A DNA stretch of 64,000 bases from Lingula anatina. Its lineage: Eukaryota > Animalia > Brachiopoda. This document shows positions 8,470 to 64,000 of the stretch, in pieces. The stretch spans positions 7,564,001 to 7,628,000 of the forward strand of contig CM120646.1 in NCBI GenBank assembly GCA_051362555.1, in the 5' to 3' direction. Position numbers and translations under genes: made by a program. The notes beneath the pieces were generated by a model. The model had not been told where the DNA came from. It saw only the letters and a program-made list of their open reading frames with translations, and did no database searches. The first letter of the stretch is position 1. Each line of letters begins with the position of its first letter.

Positions 8470-8553
8470 ATGCCTGTCTGTCTGCTAGTTGTTCAGCATG
8501 TGTGTCTGCCTGTCTGTCTTTTCGTCCGTTTGTCTGCCTGTCTTACTTTGTGA

Positions 8554-8588
<35 letters not shown>

Positions 8589-9320
8589 TGTCTGTCATCC
8601 TGTCTGCTTGCTTATGTGTCCGCCTGTCTCTGTATCTGCATGCTTGCCTGTTGATCTGCAAGCGTTTCTGGCTGTGTATCTGTCTGCTATACGGTCTGCC
8701 TGCCTGTCTGCCTAACTATGTGTCTGCCTGTCTGTCTGCCTAACTATGTGTCTGCCTGCCTGTCTGCCTATCTATGTGTCTGCCTGCCTGTCTGCCTAAC
8801 TATGTGTCTGCCTGCCTGTCTGCCTATCTATGTGTCTGCCTGCCTGTCTGCCTATCTATGTGTCTGCCTGCCTGTCTGCCTATCTATGTGTATGCCTGCC
8901 TGTCTGTCTATCTATGTGTCTGCCTGCCTGTCTGTCTGTCTAACTATGTGTCTGCCTGCCTGTCTGCCTATCTATGTGTCTGCCTGCCTGTCTGCCTATC
9001 TATGTGTCTGCCTGCCTGTCTGTCTATCTATGTGTCTGCCTGCCTGTCTGTCTGTCTAACTATGTGTCTGCCTGCCTGTCTGCCTATCTATGTGTCTGCC
9101 TGCCTGTCTGCCTATCTATGTGTCTGCCTGCCTGTCTGCGTGTTTTCCTGTGAGCGTCTGTGTGTATGCATGCCTGTTTGCTTGCGGTCCGTCTGCCTGT
9201 GGGTCTGCCCACAGGTATGTCTGCCTGTGGGTCTGCCTACGGGTATGTCTACCTGTGGGTCTGCCTACGGGTCTGTCTGCCTGTGGGTCTGCCTACGGGT
9301 CTGTCTGCTTCTCTGCCTGT
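8470..9320. repeat. Compound (TGTC/TGCC)n microsatellite with a 28-bp minisatellite period and a (TG)n tract
   Basis: TATGTGTCTGCCTGCCTGTCTGCCTA(TC/AC) is repeated through ~8715-9140, followed by GTCTGCCTGTGGGTCTGCCTACGG units. Confidence 0.95.
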
Positions 9321-9506
9321 TCATGTATTTCATCTTTGCTTATTTGTTTTACTACCTGTTCACCTTGCTTCTATTTTTCAAACCGATTTTCCTTTCTACT
9401 CCCACGTTAGACGTTTTAATTTCAACTTCCGGGGTATTTTTATGCTCGCGTCATATCCCGTATAGGCCTTCATATTAATTGATTATAGAAGCTTAAACCT
9501 AAGAAC

Positions 9507-36517: not shown

Positions 36518-39500
36518 CTACCGATAGTAAAGCAAATCATTTATGGAATCATCTTTGTTCTTGGAGGTCTTCTTTGTCTGTTTCCCATACACAAATTGAT
36601 AATTGTCTTCCAGCTGACTGTGTTTCTCTGCTTCGTCTACGGCATCAGTATCCGTTCCCTTTGAGAAAGAAAAATAAATGGCTAAATATAAATAATACAC
36701 ACCTTTAACAAAACAATTTCTCTTTCTTAACTGCTTGTTTAACAGTTTTCCATTTTGTCTCCAGTGTGACGAGTCAGATTAAGTGTTTTGGTTCAACTAT
36801 TAACTTGCAAGAATATTTAAAATACATAAGAAAGAGTATGAAAAACAGAACGACATGAAACAAACTCAGAAGACTCACAGTGTCAGAAGACATTATCTTA
36901 TATTTTATATTAAAAACATGGTGTCCTGACCTAAATGATGATGGTAATCTTTAATATGGAATCAGAGCACACAATTAAAACAGCATTCATCAATTTATTA
37001 TCTGCATAAAACCATTAATCAACAGGCTCTTCACGCACTGTGCATTCAGATTGCATGTAAATGATAACTAGAGGATCAGAGAGGCGATACCGCCTCCGAA
37101 TATTGTACCACCAGCTGGAGCAAGCGCATTCGTATAGACCCCCACATACACAAAATAAGGGGTGCAGCCACCAGTCTTGTGCTTGACAAGCTGTAAAAAT
37201 GCAATCAACAAGAATTTTCAAAATATGCAAAAAATATATATAACTAAAAATGGTGCAATCAAAGTTAAGTTCATTGTAAGGTAGGTCAAAGGTCAATTTC
37301 AAGGTCACAGTAAATTGCCAGTATATGACTTCCTATCCAACTTCAATAGTAACTATGGACCTATCTCTGCCAGTTTTGGAGATAAAAGGGAAGCAAAATT
37401 TGCAAAGTTCAGTTCATGGTGAAAAGAAGGTCAAAGGTCAATTTCAAGGTCACAGTAAAATTGCCAGTATATGACTTCCTATGCAAGTTCAATAGTAACT
37501 ATGGACCTATCTCTGCCAGTTTTGGAGATAAAAGGGAAGCAAATTTTGCAAAGTTCAGTTCAAGGTGAAAAGTAGGTCAAAGGTCAATTTCAAGGTCACA
37601 GTAAAATTGCCAGTATATGACTTCCTATTCAAGTTCAATAGTAACTATGGACCTATCTCTGCCAGTTTTGGAGATAAAAGGGAAGCAAAATTTGCAAAGT
37701 TCAGTTCATGGTGATAAGTAGGTCAAAGGTCAATTTCAAGGTCACAGTAAGATTGCCAGTATATGACTTCCTATTCAACTTCAATAGTAACTATGGACCT
37801 ATCTCTGCCAGTTTTGGAGATAAAAGGGAAGCAAAATTTGCAAAGTTCAGTTCATGGTGAAAAGTAGGTCAAAGGTCAATTTCAAGGTCACATTTAGATT
37901 GCCAGTATATGACTTCCTATTCAACTTCAATAGTAACTATGGACCTATCTCTGCCAGTTTTGGAGATAAAAGGGAAGCAAAATTTGCAAAGTTCAGTTCA
38001 TGGTGAAAAGAAGGTCAAAGGTCAATTTCAAGGTCACAGTAAAATTGCCAGTATATGACTTCCTATGCAAGTTCAATAGTAACTATGGACCTATCTCTGC
38101 CAGTTTTGGAGATAAAAGGGAAGCAAATTTTGCAAAGTTCAGTTCAAGGTGAAAAGTAGGTCAAAGGTCAATTTCAAGGTCACAGTAAAATTGCCAGTAT
38201 ATGACTTCCTATTCAAGTTCAATAGTAACTATGGACCTATCTCTGCCAGTTTTGGAGATAAAAGGGAAGCAAAATTTGCAAAGTTCAGTTCATGGTGATA
38301 AGTAGGTCAAAGGTCAATTTCAAGGTCACAGTAAGATTGCCAGTATATGACTTCCTATTCAACTTCAATAGTAACTATGGACCTATCTCTGCCAGTTTTG
38401 GAGATAAAAGGGAAGCAAAATTTGCAAAGTTCAGTTCATGGTGAAAAGTAGGTCAAAGGTCAATGTCAAGGTCACAGTAAGATTGCCAGTATATGACTTC
38501 CTATTCAACTTCAATAGTAACTATGGACCTATCTCTGCCAGTTTTGGAGATATAAGGGACTAAATGTTATAATTTTGGAGTTACCATAATGTGCCATAAA
38601 TTTCCTACAGAAAAAATTAATTAAAATAAAGAAAAGGTCATTTTGGTCAAAGTTCTTGAAATGGGAGGTTCTCTGAAGTTGGAGAAGTTTAAATTTGATA
38701 AAATAATGTCATTTTTGACCACAAGTTGTCTGCTTTGCCAAGCATTATGTTTTATTTTTCCGGAGTTCAAAATTTATTATCCATTACCGTACTGCACATT
38801 TTTACGGAAGCCGACTGGTGCCATATGTTGAAAAAAAAAATTATCTCGAAATTTCGAGATAGCATTTTTTTTGTTCAAATTTCAAAATACTATCTCGAAA
38901 TTTCGAGATAAATTTTTTTGCTCAAATATCAAAATGCTATCTCGAAATTTCGAGATAATTTTTTTTTTGTTCAAATTTCAAAATGCTATCTCGAAATTTC
39001 GAGATAAAAATTTTTTTTGTTCAAATTTCAAAATAGTATCTCGAAATTTCGAGATAATTTTTTTTTCTACATATGGCACCAGTCGGCTTCCGTACATTTT
39101 CCTTTCACCACCAATATGTACTTTCTGATACAGCGTAACTCGAAAACCGTATGAAATACAAAAAAACCGAGACCACCTCCAGTGTTGGGCTTTACATGCT
39201 CTACAAAATGCAAAAAAGAATGGGTCTCTAGCATTAACGGTTCCCGAATTAGAGACAGTTTTCAGTTTCGGTATCTTATGGCCGCTACTCCTGTGAAAAT
39301 GCACCGATTGACCCCAAATTCACGGAGATGAAAGATGACCTGAAGGGTAACACTTTCCAATAATATTATTGGTTAAGTCTGTGTGGCGTCTGAATAACAG
39401 GGCAAAAAAATTTTTTTTCGTAAAAAATTTCATTTTTTTGAAAATTTTGACCCATTTGACCTTGAAGTAAAGGTCAAAGGTCAAATCCGAGGGTATATTT

Positions 39501-42500
39501 GAAATCTACACATATGACTTTTGGAAAGCCGTCTATAGAAATTTTTCCCGTAACTCCTTCTGTAGGGTAGATAATTAGCATTTAATTTTGCCATTTTTAG
39601 ACAAGGGTGCATTGCAATGAGTGCCACACCCAGACCCCAATACCGACAAAGCCCAAATTTTACGTGGAACGAGTTGAGATTATAGGTGACCTAAATCCAT
39701 GAGATGGGTACGGGGGCCCTTACCGTCTAGGAGGAGAAGCGGTAACGGTAACATGGCGGCGGAGCCGGCGGAACGGACCGGACGGGACCGAAACCATGTG
39801 TACCGCCAGCGCTAACGCTGGTGGTAAATTTTTTTGTTCAAATTTCAAAATAGTATCTCGAAATTTCGAGATAATTTTTTTTTCTACATATGGCACCAGT
39901 GGGCTTCCGTACATTTTCCTTTCACCACCAATATGTACTTTTTGATACAGCGTAACTCGAAAACCGTATGGAATACAAAAAAACCGAGACCACCTCCAGT
40001 GTTGGGCTTTACATGCTCTACAAAATGCAAAAAAGAATGGGTCTCTAGCATTAACGGTTCCCGAATTAGAGACAGTTTTCAGTTTCGGTATCTTATGGCC
40101 GCTACTCCTGTGAAAATGCACCGATTGACCCCAAATTCACGGAGATGAAAGATGACCTGAAGGGTAACACTTTCCAATAATATTATTGGTTAAGTCTGTG
40201 TGGTGTCTGAATAACAGGGCAAAAAAATTTTTTTTCGTAAAAAATTTCATTTTTTTGAAAATTTTGGCCCATTTGACCTTGAAGTAAAGGTCAAAGGTCA
40301 AATCCGAGGGTATATTTGAAATCTACACATATGACTTTTGGAAAGCCGTCTGTAGAAATTTTTCCCGTAACTCCTTCCGTAGGGTAGATAATTAGCATTT
40401 AATTTTGCCATTTTTGGACAAGGGTGCATTGCAATGAGTGCCACACCCAGACCCCAATACCGACAAAGCCCAAATTTTACGTGGAACGAGTTGAGATTAT
40501 AGGTGACCTAAATCCATGAGATGGGTATGGGGGGCCTTACCGTCTAGGAGGAGAAGCGGTAACGGTAGCCGTCCGGCGGAGCCGGCGGAGCCGGCGGAAC
40601 GATCCGGACGAGACCGAAACCATGTGTACCGCCAGCGCTAACGCTGGTGGTACAATTAAGTAGTAAAATGTGAAAAATCTTCACCTTTTAGTATGCATTT
40701 GGGTCATTGATTTATTTTGAGAAAAAAAAAAACATTAATTTAATCAAATCTTACCGGTTTCTTGTTAAAATCTTTCAGAAAAAAATTAAGCCAAAAGTGT
40801 CAATGGATAAATACGCAGAATAAGGATCTCTGTAATAATAAATTGAGTTTTTAAAAACTAGTGCTGCCATTTCCAATCAAAATTGAGAGGTACACAATTC
40901 AACAAACAAATCAAGACAGTATTCAAAATTCTTATCCCAAATCTATCTTTAGAAAAAATTAAGGTAATACCAAGGGAAAAAACAGTATTTATGTTAGCTT
41001 CTGCTGTTACTGTACTAGGTATAATGAATCATCAGCTTAATTTTGTCTTCAATTTTCTCTGAATACTGAACTTCTAAAATTATTCTTCAGCTTTGTTTTT
41101 CATCCAATTCCCACCTCTAGCCCTGTGTGTAGTTAATATTGCATGAAGACTGACCAAACCAGGTAAGTTAGGGCAAAGAACCGGTGCTCAATGAGGCATT
41201 GAAAAACCAGAAACAGGTAGTAAGTGATCTGTCCTAATAGAGTGACTGATTGTCTTCAGGTCATAGAGGAGACTTAACTTCTCTTCAACACCACAGGCTT
41301 TATGTTGTGTTGTTACAAAATATGGTGAGAGTTTAAAAAAGTCCCACGGAACAAGTTTTAAAATAAAGGCAAGCCTTGATTAAATCCTAAGGGAAAAGAA
41401 TAAAGTAATTGCCCTCTGAGAAGAGTAGTTATCAGTAAGACTCCATTCCCATTAGAGACCAATGGTCTATATGGATCCACCCAAGTTTGCAGGGATTCTC
41501 ACTTAGTGCAAGCTTAAAGATTAACAGGTTTCCCCCTGGCGTTAAGTAGGATACAGAAAAGCTAGTTATTATACAAGTTGGATAGAACCACAAAGAACTT
41601 TGGTGTCTTTAGGGGTGATAAAGCGAAGGATGTCAAATTTTCCAGAAAAAAATAGCTATATACATAAAGGTCTTATGCTGTGTACTTTAAAATCAAACAA
41701 ACTGTATAGTCAAGACAGAGTGCTATAGGACAGAATCGAATCCAGAATAGGGGTTAAGCTTGATAAAGGGGATAACAACTCTTCAAATGAGAATAAAATT
41801 TCCACAATAAATAAATTGCAAACAACACAAACAGGTATAATAAAATTCATCTTATTTTACCACCAAAATGGCAGCAATCGTCATTATTCTGAAATTTGTG
41901 CTTGCCATTGGACCACATGGACCTTCATAGATGGCTACTTTTTGTAGTAACCTCTTACAAAAACCACACTTTAAAAAAATACAATGGATTAACTTTGAAT
42001 GTTGGAATGGATTCATTAACAATTGGAAAGTATGGGAAAATTGTCATTTACCCCAGGAAAGTCAGTTTTATGGAACTTTTTCTACCAAAATAAAGAGTTG
42101 TCATACCTTTAAAGCCCTAGAAGTAAGAAAAAAAAGAAAAAAATCCCACAGCCATAACAGATCAATATCTAGGGTTTAACTCTCTATAAACCTATTGCTG
42201 GAATAAGTCATTTCCACTGTGAAGATACCCTTCATCTACTTACCAATATTGCAATGACCATCTTGTTAATAGCCTTGCTGTCATCATCAGATAACATATG
42301 GATGGAGTCGTCATCTGCATTATAATATCCAGTAGTGATGATCTTCACTTCTATTTTTCTTCCTGAGGATGTAAAATAAGTCACAATGAAATACTGTGGA
42401 CTAATTTAGAATTGCTGCTTTTGGGTGGAGATGCTTTATCCACAAAGTAACTTAAGACGGCAAGCTGATCTTAACTTTAAACCAAAATTAAAGTCAAATC

Positions 42501-47800: not shown

Positions 47801-49658
47801 GCAGTATGAGTGAGTTTGAATTAAGCGATATGTCCAAAAATACAATTCTGAAAAATGTATGCTGAGAAAAAAAAAAAAAGAAAGAAACTATATAATTTAG
47901 AAAATGACTTACACTTGGTAACTTTAAAAGTGTCTCATGATATGTGATGCATTGCTAAATGAAATGTTCTGTTCACTTTACTGTTTCGATCAGTTCAATG
48001 TAGAACTGATCGTAAGTACTGGATAATACATGAAACTGTTTTTATGCAGCACTGTCAAATTCTTCATACATATATGCAGCACAGTCACTTGTACATATAT
48101 AATAATGAATTTTTGCTGATAATCCCTTGCACTTTCTTTTATTTTTCAATCATTTATACCCCTTATAAAAATCAATATCCTATAAATTTCATCTTGAGTA
48201 TTATATTAGAGCGATTAATTGAATTTGTTCAAATCCTTTTGAATTGTGGGGTAGAAATAAATTCATCCCTTTGATAAAATATTCTTTTCTTGTAAAACAA
48301 ACACAACCTGCTAAAGGTGTCCAATGAACACTGAAGCAACTTAAGTGAGGAAAAGTCCATATTTGTGTAAAAGAAAACATTACGATAGTTTAAAATCCTA
48401 CAGCATCCACTTGGAGGTTCAAAGTTGACTGCCAAACTTTACCGTCTTGTTGTAACTTCTCCATCCTTTCCATCTCTTCCTCAAGCTTTTGCTTTTTCTT
48501 CTCTGCCATTTGCAAAGCCAAAATGTGCTTCAGCTCTTCTGCTTTTCTTTGCTCTGTAATTTGCAACAAATGAATATCAAGACAACTAATCAACTTTATT
48601 TAAAAGATATATAATGTTTTATGTTTCTGGATCAAACTATTTAGGTTTCCGGATCAAACTTATTAATATGTCTCTATGAATTGTTGATTATTTTCAGAAA
48701 AGGATACACGACCGATAATTTATGTTTGAAAACTTCAAACTAAGTAGACATTTTTAGTTAATAAGTGATACATGAAAATAATGAATATTGTAAATTACAG
48801 GTTCAAATAATATAATTGTAATAACAGAGAAAACATGTTTACATATATTCTCTTTTCAATGCATTATTATCTATTTTTTTTTCATTTCAGTTCAATATCT
48901 ATTTCAATAATACAACTTAATCATTAAAGAGCACATACTTTCAATTTAAAAAGTTCTTCTACTCTACACTAAATAACATTCTGCAAGTTAGGTAGAACCC
49001 CGTATATGACATGAGGCAATTGCCAGTAACATGTACAAATTGTCCATTTAAACATGATGTTTCTCTATTATAATGATCATAACTTGCACCATTCAAGACT
49101 CTCTTACTCTCTTGTTCCTGTGTGTATTCAGAGTATTGCTCATCAGTCAGCAGTGGATTACATGTAATAGGTAATGGTTTCTGTGAGCTAGGAGAGCGCA
49201 GGTAGGGGTGGTGGCAGATCTTGTTGGTGTGGACCACTATGGTATACACGCAGGTCTGGGGCTCGTGGACGCTCACCACATGGTCCCCTGTGCCTTCGTC
49301 ACAGAGAAACTGGAAAATGAAAAAGTTTTGTTTGTCACTTGATTATTTTTTCAATTTGTCGCCACTAAGCCTTCATCACCTAGAAGTTGCGAATCTATAA
49401 TTTTTTAATATTAAAATATCGGACTTCCTCATTTTGAAAATTGCCTTCATCAGAAAGCATGTGGAAACTGGACTATGTTTGAACATTGTAATAATGAGCT
49501 GAAACATTTATCGAAACAGTCCCTTCATATTAAAACTGGTTAAACAGAGTATGCTCTCTTAAACATTATAATCTGCACTGTTTCCAGCTGTAATTAGATT
49601 ACCAATTATGTTATTGTGACCAGTCATATTTGGCACCTTTTTACCAGGGCATTTAGCA

Positions 49659-49733
<75 letters not shown>

Positions 49734-52718
49734 GACAATAAAGTCAATACAAATGAAAAAGTGCTCCACCCATGGTGGCGGCCCGTGGGGAGCTAGTATA
49801 AAATCAAGGATACGAATAAATTAGACTTATCTCTCCATTTTATTAAAATAATAAAATGGAGAGATAAGTCTAATTTATTTGTATCCTTGATTTTATAATA
49901 TATATATGACAGTATAATAACTTACCCTGACCTCTGACCTCCTGGGGACCCCAGTGAGGTCACAGTTGGAGCCATTCACATACTGCTGACTATGGTAACG
50001 GTTAAGTCTGTTCTTGGCATCCTGGAAAGATTTTGTCATTATAACAGTTACTTCAAACAGATGAAACAAAACTGAGTGCTTCTTGTGTATTGTCTGCTGA
50101 AAAATATGAGACTTGCAAATAATAAAGATACTACAAATGTACAGACAAATGTACAGACTTTTAGCTTTCCCAATTTTAGAAATTAGATTATCATCTCCAT
50201 TAAATAACAAGACTATTACATATATTGGCATGGCCTTATTTAAGGGTTGCACATTTAAAAAAACTAACTTTATTACTTCTGGCAAAGAAACAACAAATAG
50301 GAACAATAAGAGTACTAGATATCAGCAATGGCAACCAAAGTTGAATCAACAAAAGGCATAGAAAAACATATTCAAGGATTTATAATTTTATTAATAATAT
50401 GTTTATTTCATAAATTTTCTGGCAGGGAAATGACAACATCTATTACATCACTTCAGAATGTTGTACATGTCTGAAAGTCATGATTTAGTACATTTGGTCA
50501 GTACTTGTGCCACTTTTAATATATTTAATGTGTTCACAGATACTATAATTACCTTTTTAATAGTTTCATTGTTCCAGTCAAATTCAGACTCATAATGACC
50601 TAGAAATATCTCAATACCAACTGGTTTACCATCTGAAAGTAAAAATGGCTATTTAAGAACTGGGGTTGTTCGGCAGTATACTTCCCCACTGTGAAATTTC
50701 GGCCGGTATATCTTGGAGATCAACTTTACAAGCAACGGCATTTGTAAGGACACCAGAGAGAGAAAATATATTTAGGAGCGGTAAAGTAGTTCAGGTTGGA
50801 AAGATTAAAAACACAAGTTATCAATTTTTAAATACCAAACATAAAGAAACCTTTACCCTAGCTAGTCAGATACTTGATGCTACATACCCTATATGTTTTT
50901 AACTTTTTTTTTGCAGAAATCTAAAAAAAATGTAGAATTGTTGTGTTAACCATTGCACCTCAACAGAATAATTCAAATCCCAAGAGGTGTGATCTAAACA
51001 TGACATGTCTACTTATTATGTACTTTAAGGGCTGTGCATTCTTACCTTCCATATGGTATTGTTTTATAAACTTCCCATAGCAAAACTCATATGTCCACCA
51101 ATCCTTTCTCTGAAAATGAAAATTCCTTTACTAATATGTGTTTTGTTTGATAATGACAATTCTCTGTGTACCAAGTACATTTCACAAAGTCATTTAAATA
51201 TTTGTATATAGCCAAGTAATGATAAACAGATTCCATAAATTTTAAGAAAAGGTCCATGCTTTAGTTTTTTGACTAAAAACATTATTGTAATGGTTTAAAT
51301 CAAGAAATCATAAAAAAAGAAGAAAGAAGATGCAGGTTTGCAATGCAACCAAATAATTCCTTACATAAACCAAGCACGGACTGTTCTCCAATGGACGTAG
51401 CAACTCTGGAATCCCAGTCTCAATGGCAATTTTCTCTTCTTCCTCTTTCTGTTTCTCCTGCTGTGAATGGTCTGGAAAGCTACACTGATACTGCTGGCCA
51501 TGTTTGGAGCTCAGCACCATCACATCGCCATCTGCAGCCTGAAGGGGAGGTTTATAACTTCAATTTCTGACAGTTGAATTTGATGCCTCGCATTGCCTTT
51601 ACATATTCATTCATTTTTAATCTTTTACATATCTGCCTATGTTGGATGTAAGTGCCAGATTCCTTGCTTTATATAAACAAGGTGTAAGTGCTAGATTCCT
51701 TGTTTTAGCTATACCAGTTGTGAGTAGTTTTCATTACTTGCGTGAGTAGCGCGCCTGTTTTGAATGTTACCGAGTCATAATGCTACAGGATTTTGTACAA
51801 GAAGGGTCTCTCCTGCAGTTAACCGTATTTCCCAACGTAGTATGGTGTATTGTACATAACAGTTCAATGGAAAAATCATAATATTATGTACCATGATGAC
51901 ATGATGACATGCATGATGACATGCTGAAATGCTACTTGCTGATATGTTGACTTGTCCATTTGGAAATATAAAGCTTGAGTTACATAAACTCTCCGTTGTC
52001 TCAACGATTTCACAGTGGAGCTACAGCCGTATTTACATCAATGCACCATCACTATCCAACTCAACCTCTCCCCCCCCCCCCCAGCCCACAATATTATACT
52101 TTTCTATCATTCCCTTCCACCACTGTTACTCAGCCCAAGTACTGTAACATAATTTATGACTTGGGAGGCGTCTCGATAGTCTGAAGTTTCATTGGTCCAA
52201 AAAATAGTAACATTTCCATCAATTTTTTAATCAAGGGTTCATTGATCTGAATGTTCACCATAAAGCCTTTGGACCAATGAACCTTTTGACTATTTAGCCT
52301 TTAGACTATTGCTATGGCCCCATGACAAGACTTTATGATTTTATGACATTATGATTCAAACTGATACTTTTTCACACCATTACTTGGTACACTCACACCA
52401 GTATGAACTGATTTCACCACAACCACTTCCAGAACTACAAACACAAAGCCTACACAACTGGAAGTGAGTGCACGGATAACTTTGTTCAGCTTGAGGAACA
52501 ATGCCAAACATTACTAACATTTCATAAATATGTACAGTACCTACAGGTCAGTACAAGAGAGCCCAAACTCTCCAACTAATCCATACTAATAGCAAACTTC
52601 GACAGCAAGCTTCATGCTTTAAAGATATGTACTGAGTACTTCTGTACAGTTTTAACAGCTGTCCACAAATAGCACAACAAAGCAAGCTCCTATTTTACTG
52701 GTGTTACTGTGTGTGTGT

Positions 52719-52772
<54 letters not shown>

Positions 52773-53355
52773 GAGACCGAAAACTGAGGTAAATATAAAT
52801 CTTGTAGTGCCAGGGGCAGGTAGAACCGGCCGGGTAGCTAAGTAGGTAAGAGCACTCGCCCTGTAAGCGAGAGGTCCCGGGTTCGATTCCTGGCCTGGCT
52901 GGTGATTTTTCTGCACTCACCCCAAATTGCTACAATGGTGGCAGCGGTGTTGCGAGATAGGGCTCGCGTCTTTCGGCATTTGGGGGGGAGGAGTGTAGTG
53001 CCAGGGGCAGGTAGAACCGGCCGGGTAGCTTAATAGGTAAGAGCACTCGCCCTGTAAGCGAGAGGTCCCGGGTTCGATTCCTGGCCTGGCTGGTGATTTT
53101 TCTGCACTCACCCCAAATCGCTACAATCTCATATGACATACATTGTACATGTAGTATCTACCACGGGTAAGATATTATACAATGTACTTTTTTATAAATA
53201 TGTACAGTACCTACCTGTCCTACTTTAACCGGTATATTTAATATCTGTATTCCATAATTAATTGTCTTGAGCTCCTCTATATTCAGAAACCCCCCTGATA
53301 AGGGTAAAATAAATGACGTGAACAGCGCTGCAGCTGCTAATGTTTTGGTAGCCAT
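36518..53355 (-). CDS. OS9: Protein OS-9 (ER lectin with MRH/PRKCSH domain, ERAD), 15 exons, 740 aa
   Basis: Exons 5'->3': 53355-53215, 51538-51365, 51109-51046, 50632-50553, 50021-49926, 49309-49108, 48553-48443, 47676-47551, 46711-46166, 45860-45754, 45074-44945, 44681-44628, 44216-44085, 42362-42244, 36658-36518. All introns are GT-AG, phases are consistent, total 2223 nt. Motifs: signal peptide, LNIEEL..INYGIQIL, SKHGQQYQC, PCL..KDWWTYEFCYGK.I.QYHME, YHSQQYVNGSNCDLTG.PR.SEVRFLC, EPQTCVY......ICHHPYL, C-terminal KAGFDTGGRKIEVKII and QLEDNYQFVY. Confidence 0.93.
37283..38560. repeat. 146-bp tandem satellite, ~9 monomers
   Basis: AGGTCAAAGGTCA recurs at 37283, 37428, 37574, 37720, 37866, 38012, 38158, 38304 and 38450. 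Confidence 0.95.
38803..39094. mobile_element. MITE nested in the Helentron; TACGG..CCGTA termini, 6-bp TSD (IS3EU-like)
   Basis: ~57-bp terminal inverted repeats (TIRs) starting TACGGAAGCCGACTGGTGCCATATG. TSD CATTTT at 38797-38802 and 39095-39100. Empty site in the second Helentron copy near 56404. Interior consists of six TATCTCGAAATTTCGAGATA palindromes. Confidence 0.85.
39007..40651. repeat. ~820-bp near-identical tandem duplication of the Helentron arm
   Basis: 39007-39825 is repeated at 39826-40651. The duplicated spurious ORFs MHFHRSSGHKIPK... in the ORF track reflect this. Confidence 0.9.
42530..42734. mobile_element. Degenerate Harbinger-like MITE in OS9 intron 13
   Basis: GGCTCTATTCCCATAGATT..AGATCGATCTA pairs with TAGGTCAATCTAATCTATGGAAATGGGGTG. 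TAA on both flanks. Confidence 0.55.
42989..43103. repeat. 57-bp tandem duplication
   Basis: TGTTGTCTAGTAAACTATGCAAGTCACTGC..CACACAATAT.TAGGTGTAATTTAA occurs twice. Confidence 0.9.
45151..45408. mobile_element. Probable hAT-like MITE in OS9 intron 10
   Basis: CAGGGCTTGACAT pairs with ATGTCAAGCCTT. Internal GGGCAA(C/G)T and ACTTGCCC subrepeats. Confidence 0.5.
49663..49731. repeat. (TA)n microsatellite
   Basis: Pure TA run of about 34 units. Confidence 0.95.
49797..49897. repeat. Near-perfect 101-bp AT-rich palindrome in OS9 intron 5
   Basis: 48-bp arms with one mismatch around a 5-nt loop (AAAAT). Confidence 0.9.
52708..52771. repeat. (TG)n followed by a ~38-nt poly-G tract
   Basis: Read directly from the sequence. 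Confidence 0.9.
52828..52901 (+). ncRNA. tRNA-like cassette in the 5' LTR (A box, B box, cloverleaf; anticodon position reads TGT); probably not a functional tRNA
   Basis: Acceptor stem GGCCGGG/CCTGGCT, D arm GCT..AGC, anticodon arm CTCGC-CCTGTAA-GCGAG (C at invariant U33), T arm CCGGG-TTCGATT-CCTGG, T5 run at 52906-52910. Confidence 0.7.
53019..53092 (+). ncRNA. tRNA-like cassette in the 3' LTR
   Basis: Copy of 52828-52901 offset by 191 bp, with two D-loop substitutions. Confidence 0.7.
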
Positions 53356-54889
53356 GTTAGATGAGGTTGCTTACAATGCATTGTGGGTAGGCAGAAGCTC
53401 ACTTCCGTGGAGACGCTTTAGAGGAATCCTGGCAGTGTCAGGACAGGTAATAAAATGACAAAAATGGCATCTCAGGCCACAAAAAAAAAAAAAAAAAAAA
53501 AAAATGACATCACAAGACAGCAGTGTGTTTAACTCCAGTAATACCCATGTCCGTGCAATTTCAGCGTGAACATATAAAACATGTAAATTCCATTTTACCA
53601 CCGAAACATTGGTTATTGCAATTATTCTGAGATCTGCAGGTGCTTGCCATCGGACCACGTGCAGGTAGACCGGGGCTAAACGCCCAATCGGGGTCAAACG
53701 CCCACCCGCTTTTTTCAGGTATTACGTATAAATACGCGTCTCGTGATGTTTTGTCCACTTCCGATTTCCAGCAGACTAATCCTCCATGACGGAGATGACC
53801 ACAAACTAAAAAGTAAGCATTTTATGATAATTTGTTATTTTTTCCTTGTTTACTGTTATTTAGCCTTTTCCTTAACATCAGTGACACCACCTACCAAATG
53901 CACGAATTTAAAAAAAAACTTTGTTGGTGACAGATAGGATGATATCAGACCTCCATACAAGTCTCGATGAAGTCAGATTGTATAACACCTTTCCCGCCAA
54001 ATTTTGAAAAAATATACAAAATCTCACTTTGGGCAAAACGCCCATGCTGATATTATAGTGCCTATAGTGTCCAGTTCCTTTGATAAAATTTATAAAGGTT
54101 ATTTAAATGACTGGCCAGTCATTATAACAGCGACCATTAACCTATAAGTTCCAATGGAAATATCAACACCAGAAAAATATTTAAGGGGTTAATTAAATAA
54201 TTTTTAAAGTGTATGTAAGGTTTTATAAGAAACTGTGGATGGCAAAAACAGGCATTTTGGGGATTTTCACACCCACGGAGTCTACTTTTAATAAAAAAAG
54301 GTGAGAGGAAGTTTGTAAGTGGTTATACTAGTAACTTGCCATAGAGCAACAGTGTGTATATTCTTGCCGTCATTGTGTTTTTCTTTTTTTTTTTTTTTAT
54401 TATCGGGTAACGAACCCCTAATTAGAATACTTAATTGTAAAAATGCTTTGTCTTAATTATTAACGATAAAATCTTAGAAATAACCGCTGGCATGGTTTGA
54501 AGTATGCATTGCATGATACCGTTGAATTAACATTGAAACAGTGTTTCTATATTTATTACAATCATTGCATCATAGTTGAATAAAACCACTAGTAAATAAG
54601 AATAACGGAATATTAAAAGACATATGTAAACAAATGTAAAACAAAATAACTAAAATGCAAGGTTAAAATTTGGAATATAAGTTTATCAGTTAATTTTGTA
54701 ACTTGTATATCGCACTTGTTAAATTGATCGTTTGGTTTTAATTTTAGGTCTTTAAATTTTTTCCTGTTCACTTAATGAATAATTGACACTTTGTTTTGGT
54801 TGTTAAAGATAATGCAATCTATGATCTGGTTCATTTGATATCCTAATAAACAATATTTTGCATGCATTAATTGGGCCGTCTTTCACTCA

Positions 54890-55390: not shown

Positions 55391-57128
55391 AACTGTAGAG
55401 GATCAGAGAGGCGATACCGCCTCCGGGTATTGTACCACCAGCTGGAGTAAGCACATTCTTATGTAAAAAAAAAAAAAAAAAAAAAAAAAATGACACCACC
55501 TCTAGTTTTGTGCTTGACAAAATCTACAAAATGCAGTCTAGAATTCTAAATATTTTTATTGAAAATTACAATTCATGGGGAAGAGTAAAAGTTTAAATCC
55601 AAATTTGTGAAGTGCGATTCATGGCGAAAAGAAGGTCACCATATATATATATACCGGTATTTTCCTATTCAAGTTCGATAGTAACCAGGGCACATCTCTG
55701 TCAGTTTTGGAGATATAAGAATAGGAAGTTGCAAAGTTCAGCTCAAAAGTAGGTCAAAGGTCAATTTGAAGGTCACAGTTAGATTGGCAGTATATGACTT
55801 CCTTTTTCAAGTTCAATAGTGACTATGGGCCCATCTCTGCCAGTTTTGGAGATATAAGGGACAGAAACCTTGCAAAGCTCAGTTCATGATGAAAAGTAGG
55901 TCAAACGTCAATATCAAGGTCACAGTTAGATTACCAGTATATGACTTACTATTCAATTTCAATAGTAACTATGGGCGCATCTCTGCCAGTTTTGGAGATA
56001 TAAGGGACCAAAAAGTTGCAAAGTCGAGTCAATGGTGAAAAGAAGGTCAAAGGTCAACTTTAAAGTTACAGATTGTCAGTATATGACTTCCTATTCAAAT
56101 TCAATTGTGACTATATATGGCCATATCTATGCCAGTTTTGAAGGTATAAGCATCGAAAAAGTTGCAAAATAAAGCTCATGGTGAAAAGTAGGTCACAAGT
56201 CCATTTCAACGTCACAGTTAGATTGCCAGCATATCACTTCCTATTCAACTTCAATAGTAACTATGGGTGTATCTCTGCTAGTTTTGGAGATATGAGGGAA
56301 GGAAACCTCGCAAAGTGCAGTCCATGGTGAAAAGTAGGTCAAAGGCCAATTTTAAGGTCACAGATTGTCAGTATCAAAATTTTATGCATATTACCGTATT
56401 GCACATTTTACTTTCACCACCACAATGTACTTTTTGATACAGCATAAAACCATATGAAAAAAAAAAAACGGAGACCACTTCCAGTGTTGGGCGTGGCATG
56501 CTCTGTCAAATGCAAAAAACAAGAGGTCTCTAGCATTAACGGTTACTGAATTAGAGAGAGTTTTCTGTTTCGGCATCTAATGGTCGCTGCTCCCGTGAAA
56601 ATGCACCGATTGACCCCAAACTCATGGAGATGAAAGATGATCTGAAGGGTAACACCTGCCAATAATATTATAGGTAAGGTCTGTGTAGTTTCTTAATATC
56701 AGCGCAAACAATTTTTTTCGTAAAAAATTCGCCTTTTTTGAAAATTTTGGTCCATTTCACTATGAAATAAAGGTCAAAGGTCAAATCCAAGGGCATATTT
56801 GAATATCTCCACATATGACTTTCGGTCAGCCGTCTATAGAAATTTTCCCCATGATTCCTTTGGTACGGTAGATAATTAGCATTTAATTTTACCAATTTGC
56901 CAGTGCATTGCAATGAGCCTAGACCCCAGCACCGACGAAGCCCAAATTTTACGTGGATCGAGTTGAGATTATACGTGACCTAAATCCAAGAGATGGGTAT
57001 GCAGGCCCTTGTAGTATAGGAGGAGAAGCGGTAACGGTGACATGGCTACGGAGCCGGTGGAGCCGGTAGAACGGACCGGGCGGGACTAAAACCATGTGTT
57101 CCACCAGCGCCTACGCTGGTTTTACAAT
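55391..57128 (-). mobile_element. Second, more diverged copy of the same Helentron-like element
   Basis: Same left end (tagaggatcagagaggcgataccgcctccg...attgtaccaccagc), 5-6 degenerate satellite monomers (~55600-56370), and the same right arm ending gctggttttacaat. It lacks the nested MITE and the arm duplication. Confidence 0.8.
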
Positions 57129-57687: not shown

Positions 57688-60600
57688 TTACAGGAGTCTA
57701 ATGCAAACACCAAACGTAGTGTCGCCAGTGCTGCAAAGGTCATCGTTTAGCGCCTCGTTATTTTTGGTATTCGGACGACAGGCCAACTTAATGATCTCAT
57801 TATCGGCGTAAGCAGGCCCTTCTTGGGATCCAGAGCAACCATGCCAGCACCCAAATTTGTCGTAGGGGGGGACATCTTGAAGCAAATCAACGCAGGGAGT
57901 GTCGAGGTAGGCGGTGTCATCGCTGTCGATGTAGCACATAATCCAGCCGTCCTGCACCGCCTCGCCGGTAGTGGCATCTACAGTTTCGTTAGAATAACTG
58001 AGTATACTGCCGCAACTAGCTGAAATAGATAAATATGATTTGCATTGTTGATGTTTCACGTTACTATGTGGGACTCTTTGATATCTGATTAAATAGCATT
58101 TGAACTGGTTGAAAATCATTATATTATTTAGAGGTATTTTCAAACTCATTTTTTATGGATGATTCATATCAGAAATGATTATAATTACTTGGAATTTTCA
58201 TCCTATAATAGTCATAAAACACACAAAAGAAATTGTTAATATGAGAAATATACGCCAACTATAATTAACATTTCTCCAAAAATAAGCAACAAACGGCATA
58301 ATGACACTACAGATGCTTGAAATCATTAGTTTTCAGAACGAACTATGTTTGTGTGAAGGTTTTCTAGAATGACTTCCTTGTATTGATATAGTACCTGTCA
58401 AATTGCACACTATTTTTTTACTCGAGAGAGAACATAAGCTTTAGTTGAAGGGATTGGTTAATCTGAAATCAACTGCATGGGAATATGACAAAAGTACATG
58501 TTGAACATATTGTTCGTTTTGAGGAACAGCGCCTTCAGCATATATCATCTGTATATATGCGCTCTTTTTAGACCAGAGTCTGAAGAGGCAGGGACATGAC
58601 ATTCCCCTTTCTGAACGTTCAAAGACCTGGTACACTACGCCCCCTTCCCCCTTAAGAAAAACTAATTTTAAACTTGGGATGTACAAGTAGCAGGGCGAAA
58701 GCAATAAAACTAGAACCTTTGAGTAACAATCAAACAATGATCAGAATAACAAATTTAAACTTCAGTTCATACACAGCACTAAGATGCAGAAAACCAAAAT
58801 CCCCGTTTTAAATGTAAATGCACATAATTGCAATATACGCGAACTTATTTATAAATTGGAGAAGTTATACAGGTAGATGTAAACAATAAAAACATACCAA
58901 TGTCGCAGAGGGTACCAGAGTATCCTGGATTGCAGCTGCAGTTATAGGAATTCACACCGTCCACACAAACTCCGTTCTGGCATGGATTAGACTGACAATC
59001 ATCTATATCTATAAAAGCAACCAGAGATAATTATTAAATATAGTAAATAAAACACCCAACCAGTTTTAACCTGTATGCATAGGACATCTGAATAAAAGGA
59101 ATAAGCAAGCTTATAAATGACGTTATAAAACTTACCACAAACAGTTTTACAATATATGACTTCTTATACAAGCCCATTGCCTTCGTGATGCAATGCGTAA
59201 TTATACTTTTGAGTCCGATAGTCGATATAATACGCTTAATAGGACAAACAAAATTCTTTTAGTCAGTATTGATTTATAAGAAAGAAGTTCTTGAGAAATA
59301 CGTGATAAGATCTATCTACACATAGTCTTTCTTTGAAGAAATGTATGTATCTAAATAAATTCATCCACTAAAACAGATGCCAAAGCCTTATAAAGCAGGT
59401 AACAATTGATGGTGTACTCCTTACAGAACACAAAATGATGCAGCATTAATGTGCATTCAGAGATAATTGGTAACCAACCGTACATTTTTTCATGCACGTG
59501 AACAAGTTGATAAGATAAATATTATTTATCAAATCACCACAATGTACGCATTTCAAAAGTGTAAAGAGTAGAACATTAAATATTTATACTTGCACTATTT
59601 GAGAAACTATAATGATACACTAAAATAATGTTTTGGGAAATTTATTAAAGTAATTAATACTTACTAGTTTCACAATTAACACCAGTGTAGCCTGTATTAC
59701 AATTGCAGGTATATGAGTTTACACCGTCCACACAGTTTCCATTCTGACATGGATTAGACGAACATTCATCAATATCTGTAATGGCAGTTAAAGTTATTGT
59801 GAGAAATAGCAAAGACATCGTTCAAACTAAGTAATATAAGAATTTAATAAAAGCAAAGCAATCAGTATGTGTCTTCAATAGAAATCAAAAACATTTCCAC
59901 TGAATGAAAATTTACCAATCATTCACAAAAATAGTATAATAATAAACGCATATCATTCCACCACACGTGCAACCATCCTCTTAAATAATGTTTTGGGTCA
60001 TTAATATAAGTAGCCAATACATACTGGTTTCACAGTTAACACCAGTGTAGCCCGGATTACAATTGCAGCTATAGGAGTTTACACCGTCTACACAATTTCC
60101 ATTCTGACATGGATTAGACGCACAGTCATCAATATCTGTAATGGGAATTTAAAAATAGGACATGAGAATTAACAAATAATACATTCATTCAAATCGCAAT
60201 GGTAGGTAAATACATGACATAAAAAGTTAAGAAAAGCAGAACAATCATCATGTGTCCTTAAGGCCAATCAAAAACTTTTCCAATGAATGGAAAATAACGA
60301 ATTATTCACATAAATTGTATATTTAATGTACATTGTTGCCCTTTTCGTGCAACCACCCACTTAAATAATGTTTTGGGGCATAAATTTAATTAGCCAATGC
60401 ATACCGGTTTCACAGTTAACACCAGTGTAGCCTGGATTACAATTGCAGGTATAGGAGTTTACACCGTCTACACAATTTCCATTCTGACATGGATTAGACG
60501 AACATTCATCAATATCTGCAATGTCAATTTAAAAATATTACATGAGAAATAACAAATAATACACTCATTCAAATCACACATCATGTAACTACATGATATT

Positions 60601-63600
60601 AGAATTTAAGAAAAGCAAAACAATCACCAAGTCTTTAAGAGCAGTCAATTTTCATTGAATCGAAAATAAACCAATTATTCCCATAAATAGTATAGTAAAC
60701 GTATATCCTTCCTCTGTACGTGCAACCATCCACTTAAATAATGTTTTGGGGCATTAATATAAGTAGCCAATACATACCGGAGTCACAGTTAACACCAGTG
60801 TAGCCTGGATTACAATTGCAGCTATAGGAGTTTACACCGTCTACACAATTTCCATTCTGACATGGGTTAGATGAACATTCATCAATATCTGTAATGGCAA
60901 TTTAAATTATTGTGAGAAATAGCAAAAACATCGTTCAAACTAAGTAATATAAGAATTTAATAAAAGCAAAGCAATCAGTATGTGTCTTCAATAGAAATCA
61001 AAAACATTTCCACTGAATGAAAATTTACCAATCATTCACAAAAATAGTATAATAATAAACAGATATCCTTCCACCATACGTGCAACCATCCTCTTAAATA
61101 ATGGTTTGGGTCATTAATATAAGTAGCCAATACATACTGGTTTCACAGTTAACTCCAGTGTAGCCCGGATTGCAATTGCAGCTATAGGAGTTTACACCGT
61201 CCACACAATTTCCATTCTGACATGGATTAGACGAACATTCATCAATATCTGTAATGGCAATTTAAAAATATTACATGAGAAATAACAAAAGATACACTCA
61301 TTCAAGTCACACATCTATGTAACTACATGACAATAGAATTTAAAAAAAGCAGAACAATCATAATGTGTCCTTAAGGCCAATCAAAAACATTTCCAATGAA
61401 TGGAAAATAACAAATTATTCACATAAATTGTATATTTAATGTACCTCGTTGCCCTTTTCGTGCAACCACCCACTTAAATAATGTTTTGGGGCATAACTTT
61501 AAATAGCCAATACATACCGGTTTCACAGTTAACACCAGTGTAGCCTGGATTACAATTGCAGGTATAGGAGTTTACACCGTCTACACAATTTCCATTCTGA
61601 CATGGACTAGACGAACATTCATCAATATCTGCAATGGCAATTTAAAAATATTACATGAGAAATAACAAATAATACATTCATTCAAATCACATATGCATGT
61701 AACTACAGGATATTAGAATTTTAGAAAAGCAAAACAATCACAAAGTCTTTAAGAGCAATCAATTTTCATTGAATTCAAATTACCAATTATTCACATATAT
61801 AGTATAGTAAATGTATATCCTTCCACTATCCGTGCAACCATCCACTTATATGATATTTTAGGGCATTAATATAAGTGGCCAATACATACCGGAGTCACAG
61901 TTAACACCAGTATAGCCTGGATTACAATTGCAGGTATAGGAGTTTACACCGTCTACACAATTTCCATTCTGACATGGGTTAGATGAACATTCATCAATAT
62001 CTGTAATGGCAATTTAAATATATGACATGAGAAATAACAAATAATACACTCATTCAAATCACACATGCATGTATCTACATGATATTAAAATTTAAGAAAA
62101 GCAAAACAATCACCAAGTCCTTAAGAGCAATCAATTTTCATTGAATGAAAATTAACCAATTATTCACATAAAAGTATAGTAAATGTATATCCTTCCACTA
62201 TTCGTGCAACCATCCACTTAAATTATATTTTGGGGCATTAATATAAGTAGGCAATACCTACTGGATTCACAGTTAACACCAGTATAGCCTGGATTACAAT
62301 TGCAGGTATAGGAGTTTACACCGTCTACACAATTTCCATTCTGACATGGGTGAGATGAACATTCATCAATATCTGTAATGGCAATTTAAATATATGACAT
62401 GAGAAATAAATAATACACTCATTCAAATCACACCTGCATGTAACTACATGTCAATAGAATTTAAGAAAAGCAAAACAATTGTCATGTGTCTTTAAGGCCA
62501 ATCAAAAACTTGTCCCAATGAATGGAAAATAACGAAATTATTCACATAAATTGTATATCAAATATACATCCTTCCATATTTCGTGCAACTACCCACTTAA
62601 GTTATGTTTTTTGGCATGACTTTAAATAGCCAATACATACTGGTTTCACAGTTAACACCAGTGTAGCCTGGATTACAATTGCAGGTATAGGAGTTTACAC
62701 CGTCTACACAATTTCCATTCTGACATGGGTGAGATGAACATTCATCAATATCTGTAATGGCAATTTAAAAATATTACATGAAGAATAAAAAAAGACTCAT
62801 TCAAATCATGCTTATACGTTACTAAGTATTATTGTGAGAAATAACAAATAAAAGACTCGTTCAAATCATACTTATATATTATTAATTAATATTATATAAA
62901 AAACAAAGCAATCATCGTGTGTCTTCAATAAATATCAAAAATATTTATCCTGAATGAAAATTAACCAAATATTCACATAAATAGTAGAGTAAATGCATAT
63001 CCTTTCACTATCCGTGCAACCATTCACTTAAATAATATTTTGGGGCATTAATAGGTAGCCAATACATACTGGATTCACAGTTAACACCAGTGTAGCCTGG
63101 ATTACAGTTGCAGGTATAGGAGTTTACACCGTCTACACAATTTCCATTCTGACATGGGTGAGATGAACATTCATCAATATCTGTAATGGCAATTTAATAT
63201 ATGACATGAGAAATAACAAATAATACACTCATTCAAATCACACCTGCATCTAACTACATGACAATAGAATTTAAGAAAAGCAAAACAATTGTCATGTGTC
63301 TTTAAGGCCAATCAAAAACATGTCCCAATGAGTGGAAAATAACGAAATTATTCACATTAATTGTAAATTAAATATACATCCTTCCATATGTCGTGCAACT
63401 GCCCACTTAAGTAATGTTTTTGGCATAACTTTAAATAGCCAATACATACTGGTTTCACAGTTAACACCAGTGTAGCCTGGATTACAATTGCAGGTATAGG
63501 AGTTTACACCGTCTGCACAATGTCCATTCTGACATGGGTTAGATGAACATTCATCAATATCTGTAATGGCAATTTAAATATATGACATGAGAAATAACAA

Positions 63601-64000
63601 ATAATACACTCATTCAAATCACACCTGCATGTAACTACATGACAATAGAATTTAAGAAAAGCAAAACAATTGTCATGTGTCTTTAAGGCCAATCAAAAAC
63701 ATGTCCCAATGAGTGGAAAATAACGAAATTATTCACATTAATTGTAAATTAAATATACATCCTTCCATATGTCGTGCAACTGCCCACTTAAGTAATGTTT
63801 TTGGCATAACTTTAAATAGCCAATACATACTGGTTTCACAGTTAACACCAGTGTAGCCTGGATTACAATTGCAGGTATAGGAGTTTACACCGTCTGCACA
63901 ATGTCCATTCTGACATGGGTTAGATGAACATTCATCAATATCTGTAATGGCAATTTAAATATATGACATGAGAAATAACAAATAATACACTCATTCAAAT
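57688..64000 (-). CDS. 3' part of a multi-EGF (fibropellin/Notch-like, calcium-binding EGF repeat) protein gene; 5' part lies beyond the window
   Basis: Thirteen 111-nt phase-1 exons: 63941-63831, 63560-63450, 63180-63070, 62751-62641, 62372-62262, 62000-61890, 61628-61518, 61248-61138, 60888-60778, 60515-60405, 60135-60025, 59775-59665, 59008-58898. Each encodes approximately (N/D)[36 protein letters not shown]. Terminal exon 58019-57688 encodes ASCGSIL...FGVCIRLL*. Minus-strand AATAAA near 57224-57229. Confidence 0.9.
59600..64000. repeat. Tandem array of exon+intron units (360-429 bp, ~12 copies visible)
   Basis: Exon spacing is 360, 380, 373, 360, 380, 372, 372, 379, 429, 380, 381 bp. 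Intron sequences are also visibly homologous between units. Confidence 0.95.

What the first reader, a model, noticed from the sequence alone, without database searches (positions are those of the whole stretch)
52799..53129. Complete 323-bp LTR retrotransposon whose LTRs are built around a tRNA-like Pol III gene
Seen: what looks like a tandem SINE pair has every LTR-element hallmark. It has an ATCT TSD, TG..CA 132-bp LTRs (3 mismatches, so fairly young), a primer-binding site matching the tRNA-Leu 3' end, a polypurine tract, and only 59 bp of internal sequence with a GCGAG/CTCGC hairpin. Each LTR folds into a full cloverleaf with A and B boxes, followed by a T5 terminator. Established: plant Cassandra TRIMs carry 5S-derived LTRs, and tRNA-LTR TRIMs were recently described as Helenus. 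Inference: this is a probably unannotated Helenus-type family transcribed by Pol III. It would need read-through of T5 to make genomic RNA and would otherwise release a tRNA-like small RNA. It sits ~90 bp inside OS9 intron 1, antisense to OS9.
Basis: partly seen in the sequence, partly recalled or inferred. Interest (0 to 1): 0.72.

Follow-up and report, generated by a model that had tools for sequence, protein, structure and literature searches.

The report
Known Helenus mini-retrotransposon copy in Lingula
This is an intact copy of an already published 323-base jumping element (Helenus-1_LAn of the brachiopod Lingula) with a tRNA-like gene in each terminal repeat; it lies in the first intron of the OS9 gene, is likely a recent insertion absent from other individuals, and is likely transcribed by RNA polymerase III, which remains untested.

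Summary
The anatomy is real: 132-bp TG..CA LTRs (3 mismatches), 59-bp internal part, ATCT duplication, tRNA-Leu primer site, polypurine tract and a tRNA-like unit in each LTR. It is not unannotated. Kojima 2024 (PMC10886601, Data S1/Table S1) lists Helenus-1_LAn from Lingula anatina with LTR 132, internal 59, total 323, TSD 4. By eye the internal part matches 59 of 59 and each LTR 126 of 132. The host gene's only hit is L. anatina OS-9. In 4 of 4 DNA runs laid, the element has tens to hundreds of times the flank depth, and other loci share its ends. The right-flank contigs start exactly where an empty allele would, so the insertion is probably polymorphic (the letters were not shown). Pol III transcription, read-through of the T5 and the Gypsy helper are inferred; no RNA data were obtained. 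The scan has noted Helenus-type elements in other genomes before, none like this sequence. Verdict: already known family, ordinary copy, low interest.

The parts
52799..52802 (+). left target-site duplication ATCT
52803..52934 (+). 5' LTR, 132 bp, TG..CA
   Evidence: 126 of 132 to Helenus-1_LAn LTR by eye; other loci begin at 52803
52828..52901 (+). tRNA-like unit in 5' LTR (box A from 52835, box B from 52880, anticodon TGT, C at the normally U33 position 52861)
52906..52910 (+). T5 run, predicted Pol III terminator that a full-length RNA would have to read through
   Evidence: function inferred
52935..52993 (+). internal part, 59 bp
   Evidence: 59 of 59 to Helenus-1_LAn-I by eye
52936..52949 (+). 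primer-binding site, 14 nt complementary to tRNA-Leu(AAG)+CCA
   Evidence: position; tRNA 3' end printed in Kojima Fig. S2; by eye
52952..52967 (+). 5-bp GCGAG/CTCGC hairpin; not more stable than chance
52982..52993 (+). polypurine tract next to the 3' LTR
52994..53125 (+). 3' LTR, 132 bp, TG..CA
   Evidence: 126 of 132 to Helenus-1_LAn LTR by eye; another locus ends at 53125 (record 31)
53019..53092 (+). tRNA-like unit in 3' LTR (box A from 53026, box B from 53071)
53097..53101 (+). T5 run in 3' LTR, predicted end of the full-length RNA
   Evidence: function inferred
53126..53129 (+). right target-site duplication ATCT
53215..53355 (-). coding part of OS9 exon 1 (host gene; ATG at 53355, donor after 53215)
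51539..53214 (-). OS9 intron 1 (1676 bp), which holds the element in antisense orientation
   Evidence: the frames on either side continue VKVGQ|AADGD as in P0001

Best explanation
This is a full-length copy of the published non-autonomous LTR retrotransposon family Helenus-1_LAn of Lingula, lying antisense in OS9 intron 1; it is likely a recent, polymorphic insertion, and it is likely copied from an RNA polymerase III transcript by the enzymes of an autonomous Gypsy element. Shown: anatomy, family identity, many other copies with the same ends. Inferred mechanism: the A and B boxes in the 5' LTR recruit Pol III, which would start near 52828. Most transcripts would stop at the first T5 and give an 83-nt tRNA-like RNA. 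A fraction would read through to the second T5 and give a 274-nt genomic RNA in which the tRNA-like unit is the repeated R region (U3 25 nt, R 83 nt, U5 24 nt). Host tRNA-Leu(AAG) would prime minus-strand synthesis at the PBS, the PPT would prime the plus strand, and a Gypsy integrase would insert the cDNA with a 4-bp duplication. Odds: family identity about 0.98; polymorphic insertion about 0.8; Gypsy helper about 0.85; Pol III with leaky T5 as the source of genomic RNA about 0.6.
For: Family match: dimensions 132/59/323/4; internal 59 of 59 and LTRs 126 of 132 each, by eye; host gene's only hit is L. anatina OS-9, E 6.9e-39. Multi-copy with fixed ends: summed contig depth 28-432 times the left flank in the four bins 52817-53004 across 4 runs (not a copy number); 5 contigs of run X1 have unrelated letters before 52803 (agreement 0.54); records of X2, X3 and X4 start at 52803 or end at 53125 and go on with other letters. 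Probable empty allele: in 4 of 4 runs (at most 4 samples, 3 studies) the right-flank contig aligns from exactly 53125 with unaligned letters to its left (22 in X2, 26 in X4; 36 or 49 in X1 and 19 or 48 in X3, by how the minus-strand record is counted). An empty allele should align from 53125, since 52798 and 53125 are both A while 52797 and 53124 differ, and 26 is the number of letters between the poly-G and 52797. LTR-LTR difference of 2.3% is no larger than the 13-16 differences in 398 bases between the window's left flank and these runs. Gypsy link: 4-bp TSD in animal Helenus, and the same tRNA-Leu-AAG PBS start in Gypsy-57_CaAu and Gypsy-130_CGi. Leaky T5: in budding yeast tracts of 6 or more T are classed as strong, shorter ones as weak, and primary termination is only partly efficient (bioRxiv 10.1101/2021.08.27.457903, passages); Cassandra arrays give multi-unit transcripts, presumably by read-through (PMC7215508, passages).
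Against: No RNA evidence was obtained, so start, end, strand and level of any transcript are unknown. The empty-allele letters were not displayed, no joint was listed (the left flank lies next to a skipped repeat), and 683 records of the piece table were not shown, so filled alleles in those runs are not excluded. The yeast paper also shows that a hairpin next to a weak T-tract strengthens termination, and here the acceptor stem ends 4 nt before the T5; animal Pol III is recalled to stop at four T. Both points argue against much read-through. Both LTRs of this copy differ from the family majority base at LTR position 38 in box A/D stem, so this copy may be a weaker promoter than its relatives. 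No autonomous partner could be sought (no genome held; no retroelement-like ORF of 200 aa or more in the window).
Confidence: 0.9

Rival explanations
1. Same element, different promoter use: the genomic RNA comes from Pol II read-through of copies inside host transcripts or tandem arrays. The T5 stops Pol III efficiently, so the tRNA unit yields only a short by-product or serves as a folding or packaging signal.
For: T5 directly follows a folded acceptor stem, a context that strengthens termination in yeast. Cassandra arrays occur in mRNA/EST pools. The whole 3' LTR folds as one long hairpin better than most shuffles (z -2.49, 4 of 200; 5' LTR only z -1.28, 22 of 200), and this fold needs U3, which lies upstream of a Pol III start.
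Against: A and B boxes are conserved across Helenus families of fungi, animals and plants, and element lengths stay in the Pol III range (PMC10886601). Read-through by even a minority of polymerases would suffice.
Confidence: 0.3
2. The two tRNA-like units are functional tRNA-Thr(UGU) genes that the element spreads through the genome.
For: ARAGORN and Rfam call them tRNA; the acceptor, anticodon and T stems pair fully; seven bivalve Helenus families pass the isotype check as tRNA-Thr.
Against: C instead of the near-invariant U33 (invariance recalled), three G-U pairs in acceptor and one in T stem, weak D arm. No LAn family is among those listed in Kojima's Fig. S1 as able to encode a tRNA.
Confidence: 0.04
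3. A tandem pair of tRNA-derived SINEs, or a local duplication of a tRNA pseudogene, that resembles an LTR element by chance.
For: Each repeat alone looks like a SINE head with A and B boxes and a T-run.
Against: TG..CA ends, a PBS one base after the first repeat, a PPT abutting the second, a 4-bp TSD around the pair, no A-rich tail; the same ends at other loci; exact match to a curated TRIM.
Confidence: 0.01
4. The LTR's tRNA-like RNA, after CCA addition, primes the element's own reverse transcription.
For: 7 bases of complementarity at 52939, of which 3 come from CCA itself.
Against: At the true PBS start (52936) only the 3 CCA bases match, against 14 for tRNA-Leu(AAG). The published consensus differs in those bases (by eye), and Kojima found no such complementarity in Helenus.
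Confidence: 0.02

Closest known systems
Helenus-1_LAn (Lingula anatina), Kojima 2024, Biology 13:119, PMC10886601. Read: main text parts 1-5 of 6, passages of legends and tables, supplement parts 1, 9, 10, 11 of 11 and search passages near part 7.
   Same: LTR 132, internal 59, total 323, TSD 4; internal part identical; LTRs 126 of 132; same host species by the OS9 protein hit.
   Different: Four LTR positions (70, 92, 97, 98) differ from the published consensus in both LTRs, perhaps a sub-variant; two more differ per LTR. The paper gives no locus, no copy number (Table S3 has no Lingula row), no PBS panel for brachiopods (Fig. S2 covers wasps, vertebrates, bivalves) and no polymorphism data.
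Helenus-2_LAn and Helenus-3_LAn (same paper, Data S1 passages)
   Same: Same host, TGTAGTG..GCTACA ends, tRNA-Leu PBS start, similar PPT and size (314 and 322 bp).
   Different: Different U3 and tRNA-like sequences; LAn-3's internal part is close but not identical; none matches the window as LAn-1 does.
Cassandra and Ajax (5S-derived TRIMp3). Kalendar 2008 not held, taken from Kojima's introduction; Kalendar 2020, PMC7215508, passages.
   Same: Non-coding TRIM with a Pol III gene fragment in each LTR, PBS and PPT.
   Different: 5S rRNA-derived, not tRNA-derived; Cassandra is the only TRIMp3 whose Pol III transcription is validated, with an 18-nt R region; the R region predicted here is 83 nt.
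tRNA-derived SINEs (SINE2)
   Same: Internal A/B-box promoter in a tRNA-like head; proposed donor of the tRNA unit in Helenus LTRs.
   Different: SINEs have no LTRs, PBS or PPT, and are moved by LINEs.

Membership tests
Helenus (TRIMp3) | two LTRs with TG..CA ends, total under 1000 bp, no coding capacity | tested here: met
   132-bp LTRs, 323 bp, 59-bp internal part
Helenus (TRIMp3) | tRNA-like sequence with box A and box B inside each LTR | tested here: met
   ARAGORN, Rfam 60-63 bits, motif match
Helenus (TRIMp3) | PBS complementary to a tRNA 3' end just after the 5' LTR | tested here: met
   14 nt to tRNA-Leu-AAG+CCA printed in Fig. S2 (by eye; Lingula's own tRNA not checked)
Helenus (TRIMp3) | polypurine tract before the 3' LTR | tested here: met
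   12 purines at 52982-52993
Helenus (animal) | 4-bp target-site duplication | tested here: met
   ATCT on both sides; TSDs of other copies were not read
Helenus (TRIMp3) | dispersed multi-copy family with fixed termini | tested here: met
   high depth and other flanks at 52803 and 53125 in contigs of 4 DNA runs
Helenus-1_LAn | sequence and dimensions of the published consensus | tested here: met
   132/59/323/4; internal 59 of 59; LTRs 126 of 132 each, compared by eye
TRIMp3 | transcription by RNA polymerase III from the LTR's small-RNA promoter | not tested
   no RNA reads were laid; also unvalidated for all Helenus in the paper
Helenus (animal) | mobilised in trans by an autonomous Gypsy element | not testable with these tools
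   no genome held; only the PBS likeness to Gypsy elements of other animals
functional tRNA-Thr(UGU) gene | U33 in the anticodon loop and an intact D arm | tested here: not met
   C at 52861/53052; D arm absent from centroid folds; U33 rule recalled
SINE2 dimer | A-rich or simple-repeat tail, no PBS/PPT, no fixed TG..CA ends | tested here: not met
   no tail; PBS, PPT and fixed ends present

The most novel reading that the evidence does not exclude
Lingula Helenus elements run on a deliberately leaky Pol III terminator and a cloverleaf kept under selection as RNA: one promoter yields both an abundant 83-nt tRNA mimic and the 274-nt genomic RNA, and this segregating copy changes OS9 splicing through the consensus splice donor that each LTR places on the gene's sense strand 103 nt past the native donor. 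The acceptor stem keeps its pairing across the window copy and the three published Lingula families, with two-sided changes in LAn-2 and LAn-3 (by eye), which the original paper does not discuss in the parts read.
Probability: 0.2. Interest if true: 0.45.

Novelty: already known. Interest (0 to 1): 0.12.

Why it matters
As a discovery it matters little: the family, host, dimensions and sequence were published in 2024. Practical value: such copies are called as real tRNA-Thr genes by ARAGORN and pass Rfam's tRNA cut-off, so they inflate tRNA counts in Lingula. A probably polymorphic copy shows the family moved recently. With its small size, that makes it a convenient case for the open question of whether Helenus is transcribed by Pol III and how a full-length RNA gets past the T-run in the first LTR.

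Tried and rejected
No whole genome is held, so copy counts, solo LTRs, tandem arrays, TSDs of other copies and the Gypsy partner could not be searched. No second copy or solo LTR in the 64-kb window. No RNA holder was listed among indexed runs; this says nothing about expression, and no RNA reads were laid, so transcription, OS9 splicing and the letters of the empty allele stay open. A 21-base LTR/PBS junction pattern found 0 matches in metagenome contigs. The scan's notes hold no look-alike sequence. The SCARNA7 hit at 52606-52805 (16 bits against a cut-off of 65) is a GT-repeat artefact. The internal hairpin was rejected as a special structure (z +1.04). Self-priming was rejected. Kalendar 2008 is not held; PMC4982682 was seen only as a search listing. 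Two literature searches and passages of the two later papers opened (PMC12859917, PMC13570524) showed only passing citations of Helenus and no transcription study; subscription papers are mostly not searched, and PMC10946416 was seen only as a listing. tRNAscan-SE, Repbase and Dfam are not available here; the comparison with the published consensus was made by eye from the supplement text.

Full report
Observation. The element spans 52803-53125 (323 bp): two 132-bp repeats that begin TG and end CA and differ at three places (52840/53031, 52842/53033, 52928/53119), a 59-bp internal part, and ATCT on both sides. ARAGORN calls tRNA-Thr(TGT) in each repeat, the only two calls in the window, and Rfam's tRNA model scores them 60.1 and 62.9 bits against a cut-off of 29. 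Box A and box B motifs are present 45 nt apart in both, followed by T5 at 52906-52910 and 53097-53101. The PBS starts one base after the 5' LTR and is complementary over 14 nt to tRNA-Leu-AAG+CCA as printed in Kojima's Fig. S2 (by eye). Twelve purines abut the 3' LTR. Two details are weaker than stated: the D arm is missing from the centroid folds and the tRNA part is no more stable than shuffles (z -0.42, -0.58), and the internal part with its 5-bp hairpin folds worse than 175 of 200 shuffles.

Host. An exon near 49,100-49,300 has one hit among 31 candidates, OS-9 of Lingula anatina. That protein maps in 15 pieces on the minus strand from about 53,322 down to 36,521. The ATG is at 53355, exon 1 ends at 53215 and the next exon starts at 51538; the frames continue VKVGQ|AADGD as in the protein. 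The element therefore lies antisense in the 1676-bp intron 1, 85 bp from the donor.

Identity. Kojima 2024 (PMC10886601; I read main-text parts 1-5 of 6, passages of legends and tables, supplement parts 1, 9, 10, 11 of 11 and search passages near part 7) reports three Helenus families from L. anatina. All six short window motifs searched in the supplement hit Helenus-1_LAn. Table S1 gives it as LTR 132, internal 59, full length 323, TSD 4, the same numbers as here. By eye, the internal part is identical at 59 of 59 positions and each LTR matches at 126 of 132; positions 70, 92, 97 and 98 differ in both LTRs, position 38 differs in both but to different bases, and 126 (5') or 40 (3') differs in one. 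The paper states that all consensus sequences are in Repbase. The claim 'probably unannotated family' is therefore wrong.

Other copies and age. No genome was available, so I laid contigs of four public DNA runs (at most 4 samples, 3 studies) on 52300-53700. Summed depth over the four bins 52817-53004 is 28 to 432 times the left flank; the tool warns that this is no copy number, but it shows a large family. Five contigs of run X1 carry unrelated letters before 52803, and single records of X2, X3 and X4 begin at 52803 or end at 53125 and continue with other letters. In 4 of 4 runs the contig over the right flank aligns from exactly 53125 and has unaligned letters to its left: 22 (X2), 26 (X4), 36 or 49 (X1), 19 or 48 (X3). 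A filled allele would run on into the LTR; an empty allele would align from 53125, because 52798 and 53125 are both A while 52797 and 53124 differ, and 26 equals the letters between the poly-G and 52797. Against over-reading this: the letters were not displayed, no joint was listed (the left flank adjoins a skipped repeat), and 683 records were not shown. I put a polymorphic insertion at about 0.8. LTR-LTR difference is 2.3%, no more than the 13-16 differences in 398 bases between the window's left flank and these runs (the right flank differs at 0-2 places).

Mechanism. Shown: structure, family, multi-copy state. From the family paper: animal Helenus make 4-bp TSDs and share PBS sequences only with Gypsy elements; Gypsy-57_CaAu and Gypsy-130_CGi carry the same tRNA-Leu-AAG PBS start. 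Inferred: Pol III starts near 52828; stopping at the first T5 gives an 83-nt tRNA-like RNA, and read-through to the second T5 gives a 274-nt RNA with R 83, U5 24 and U3 25 nt, which tRNA-Leu and a Gypsy helper's enzymes would copy and insert. In budding yeast, tracts shorter than six T are classed as weak and primary termination is only partly efficient, but a nearby hairpin such as the acceptor stem strengthens weak terminators (bioRxiv 10.1101/2021.08.27.457903, passages); animal Pol III is recalled to need only four T. Cassandra arrays yield multi-unit transcripts (PMC7215508, passages). I give the leaky Pol III model about 0.6 and a Pol II read-through source about 0.3. No RNA reads were laid, so this is untested, and Kojima says the same of all Helenus. 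The tRNA-like unit is unlikely to work in translation: C stands at position 33, the D arm is weak, and no LAn family appears in Fig. S1's list of families that could encode a tRNA. Self-priming, a lead from earlier notes on diatom elements, fails here: 3 complementary bases at the PBS start and 7 at an offset site, against 14 for tRNA-Leu.

What is small but new. The paper has no PBS panel, copy number, locus or polymorphism data for Lingula. By eye, the three acceptor-stem differences between this copy and the consensus all keep pairing, but they are C/T changes opposite G, which always do. LAn-2 and LAn-3 keep the stem with two-sided changes, which may reflect selection on the RNA fold or descent from different tRNAs. 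On OS9's sense strand each LTR carries GGG|GTGAGT, a consensus donor, at 53111 and 52920; use of the first would add 103 nt to exon 1. None of this was tested on RNA.

Verdict. Observation confirmed; class right; novelty wrong. It is an ordinary young copy of a published family. Two paper searches and passages of two later papers showed no study of Helenus transcription, within a library that lacks most subscription journals. The scan's notes hold 119 findings with the words Helenus, TRIM, tRNA and LTR in at least 21 genomes (unchecked) and none like this sequence. Interest 0.12.

Noticed in passing
window 53111 and 52920 (minus strand): Each LTR places a consensus 5' splice donor (GGG|GTGAGT) on the OS9 sense strand; the native intron-1 donor is CAG|GTAGGT at 53214. 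Use of 53111 would extend exon 1 by 103 nt and shift the frame.
   Followed up: partly
window 52840 / 53031: Both LTRs differ from the family's majority C at LTR position 38, to different bases (A and T); all contigs counted at these places read C.
   Followed up: partly
window 52803-52934 and 52994-53125: Each LTR folds as one long hairpin, with U3 pairing to U5 around the tRNA unit and covering part of the T5; significant only for the 3' LTR (z -2.49; 5' LTR -1.28).
   Followed up: partly
window 53584-53700 and beyond: A second high-copy repeat starts about 230 bp upstream of the OS9 ATG (summed depth in the thousands, many loose ends in all 4 runs); one weak match at 41854-41919. Not identified.
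   Followed up: no
window 52709-52771: A GT microsatellite followed by a 39-base G run ends 27 bp before the left TSD.
   Followed up: no
window 52520-52549 and 53190-53219: A 30-nt direct repeat (90% identical) lies on either side of the element; the right copy overlaps the OS9 exon-1 donor.
   Followed up: no
window 37260-38559, 55662-56374, 59569-64000, 8465-9326: Tandem arrays (about 146-bp units at 37-38 kb with related sequence at 55-56 kb; a larger-unit array from 59.6 kb to the window end; a low-complexity array near 8.5-9.3 kb) seen in the self-comparison.
   Followed up: no
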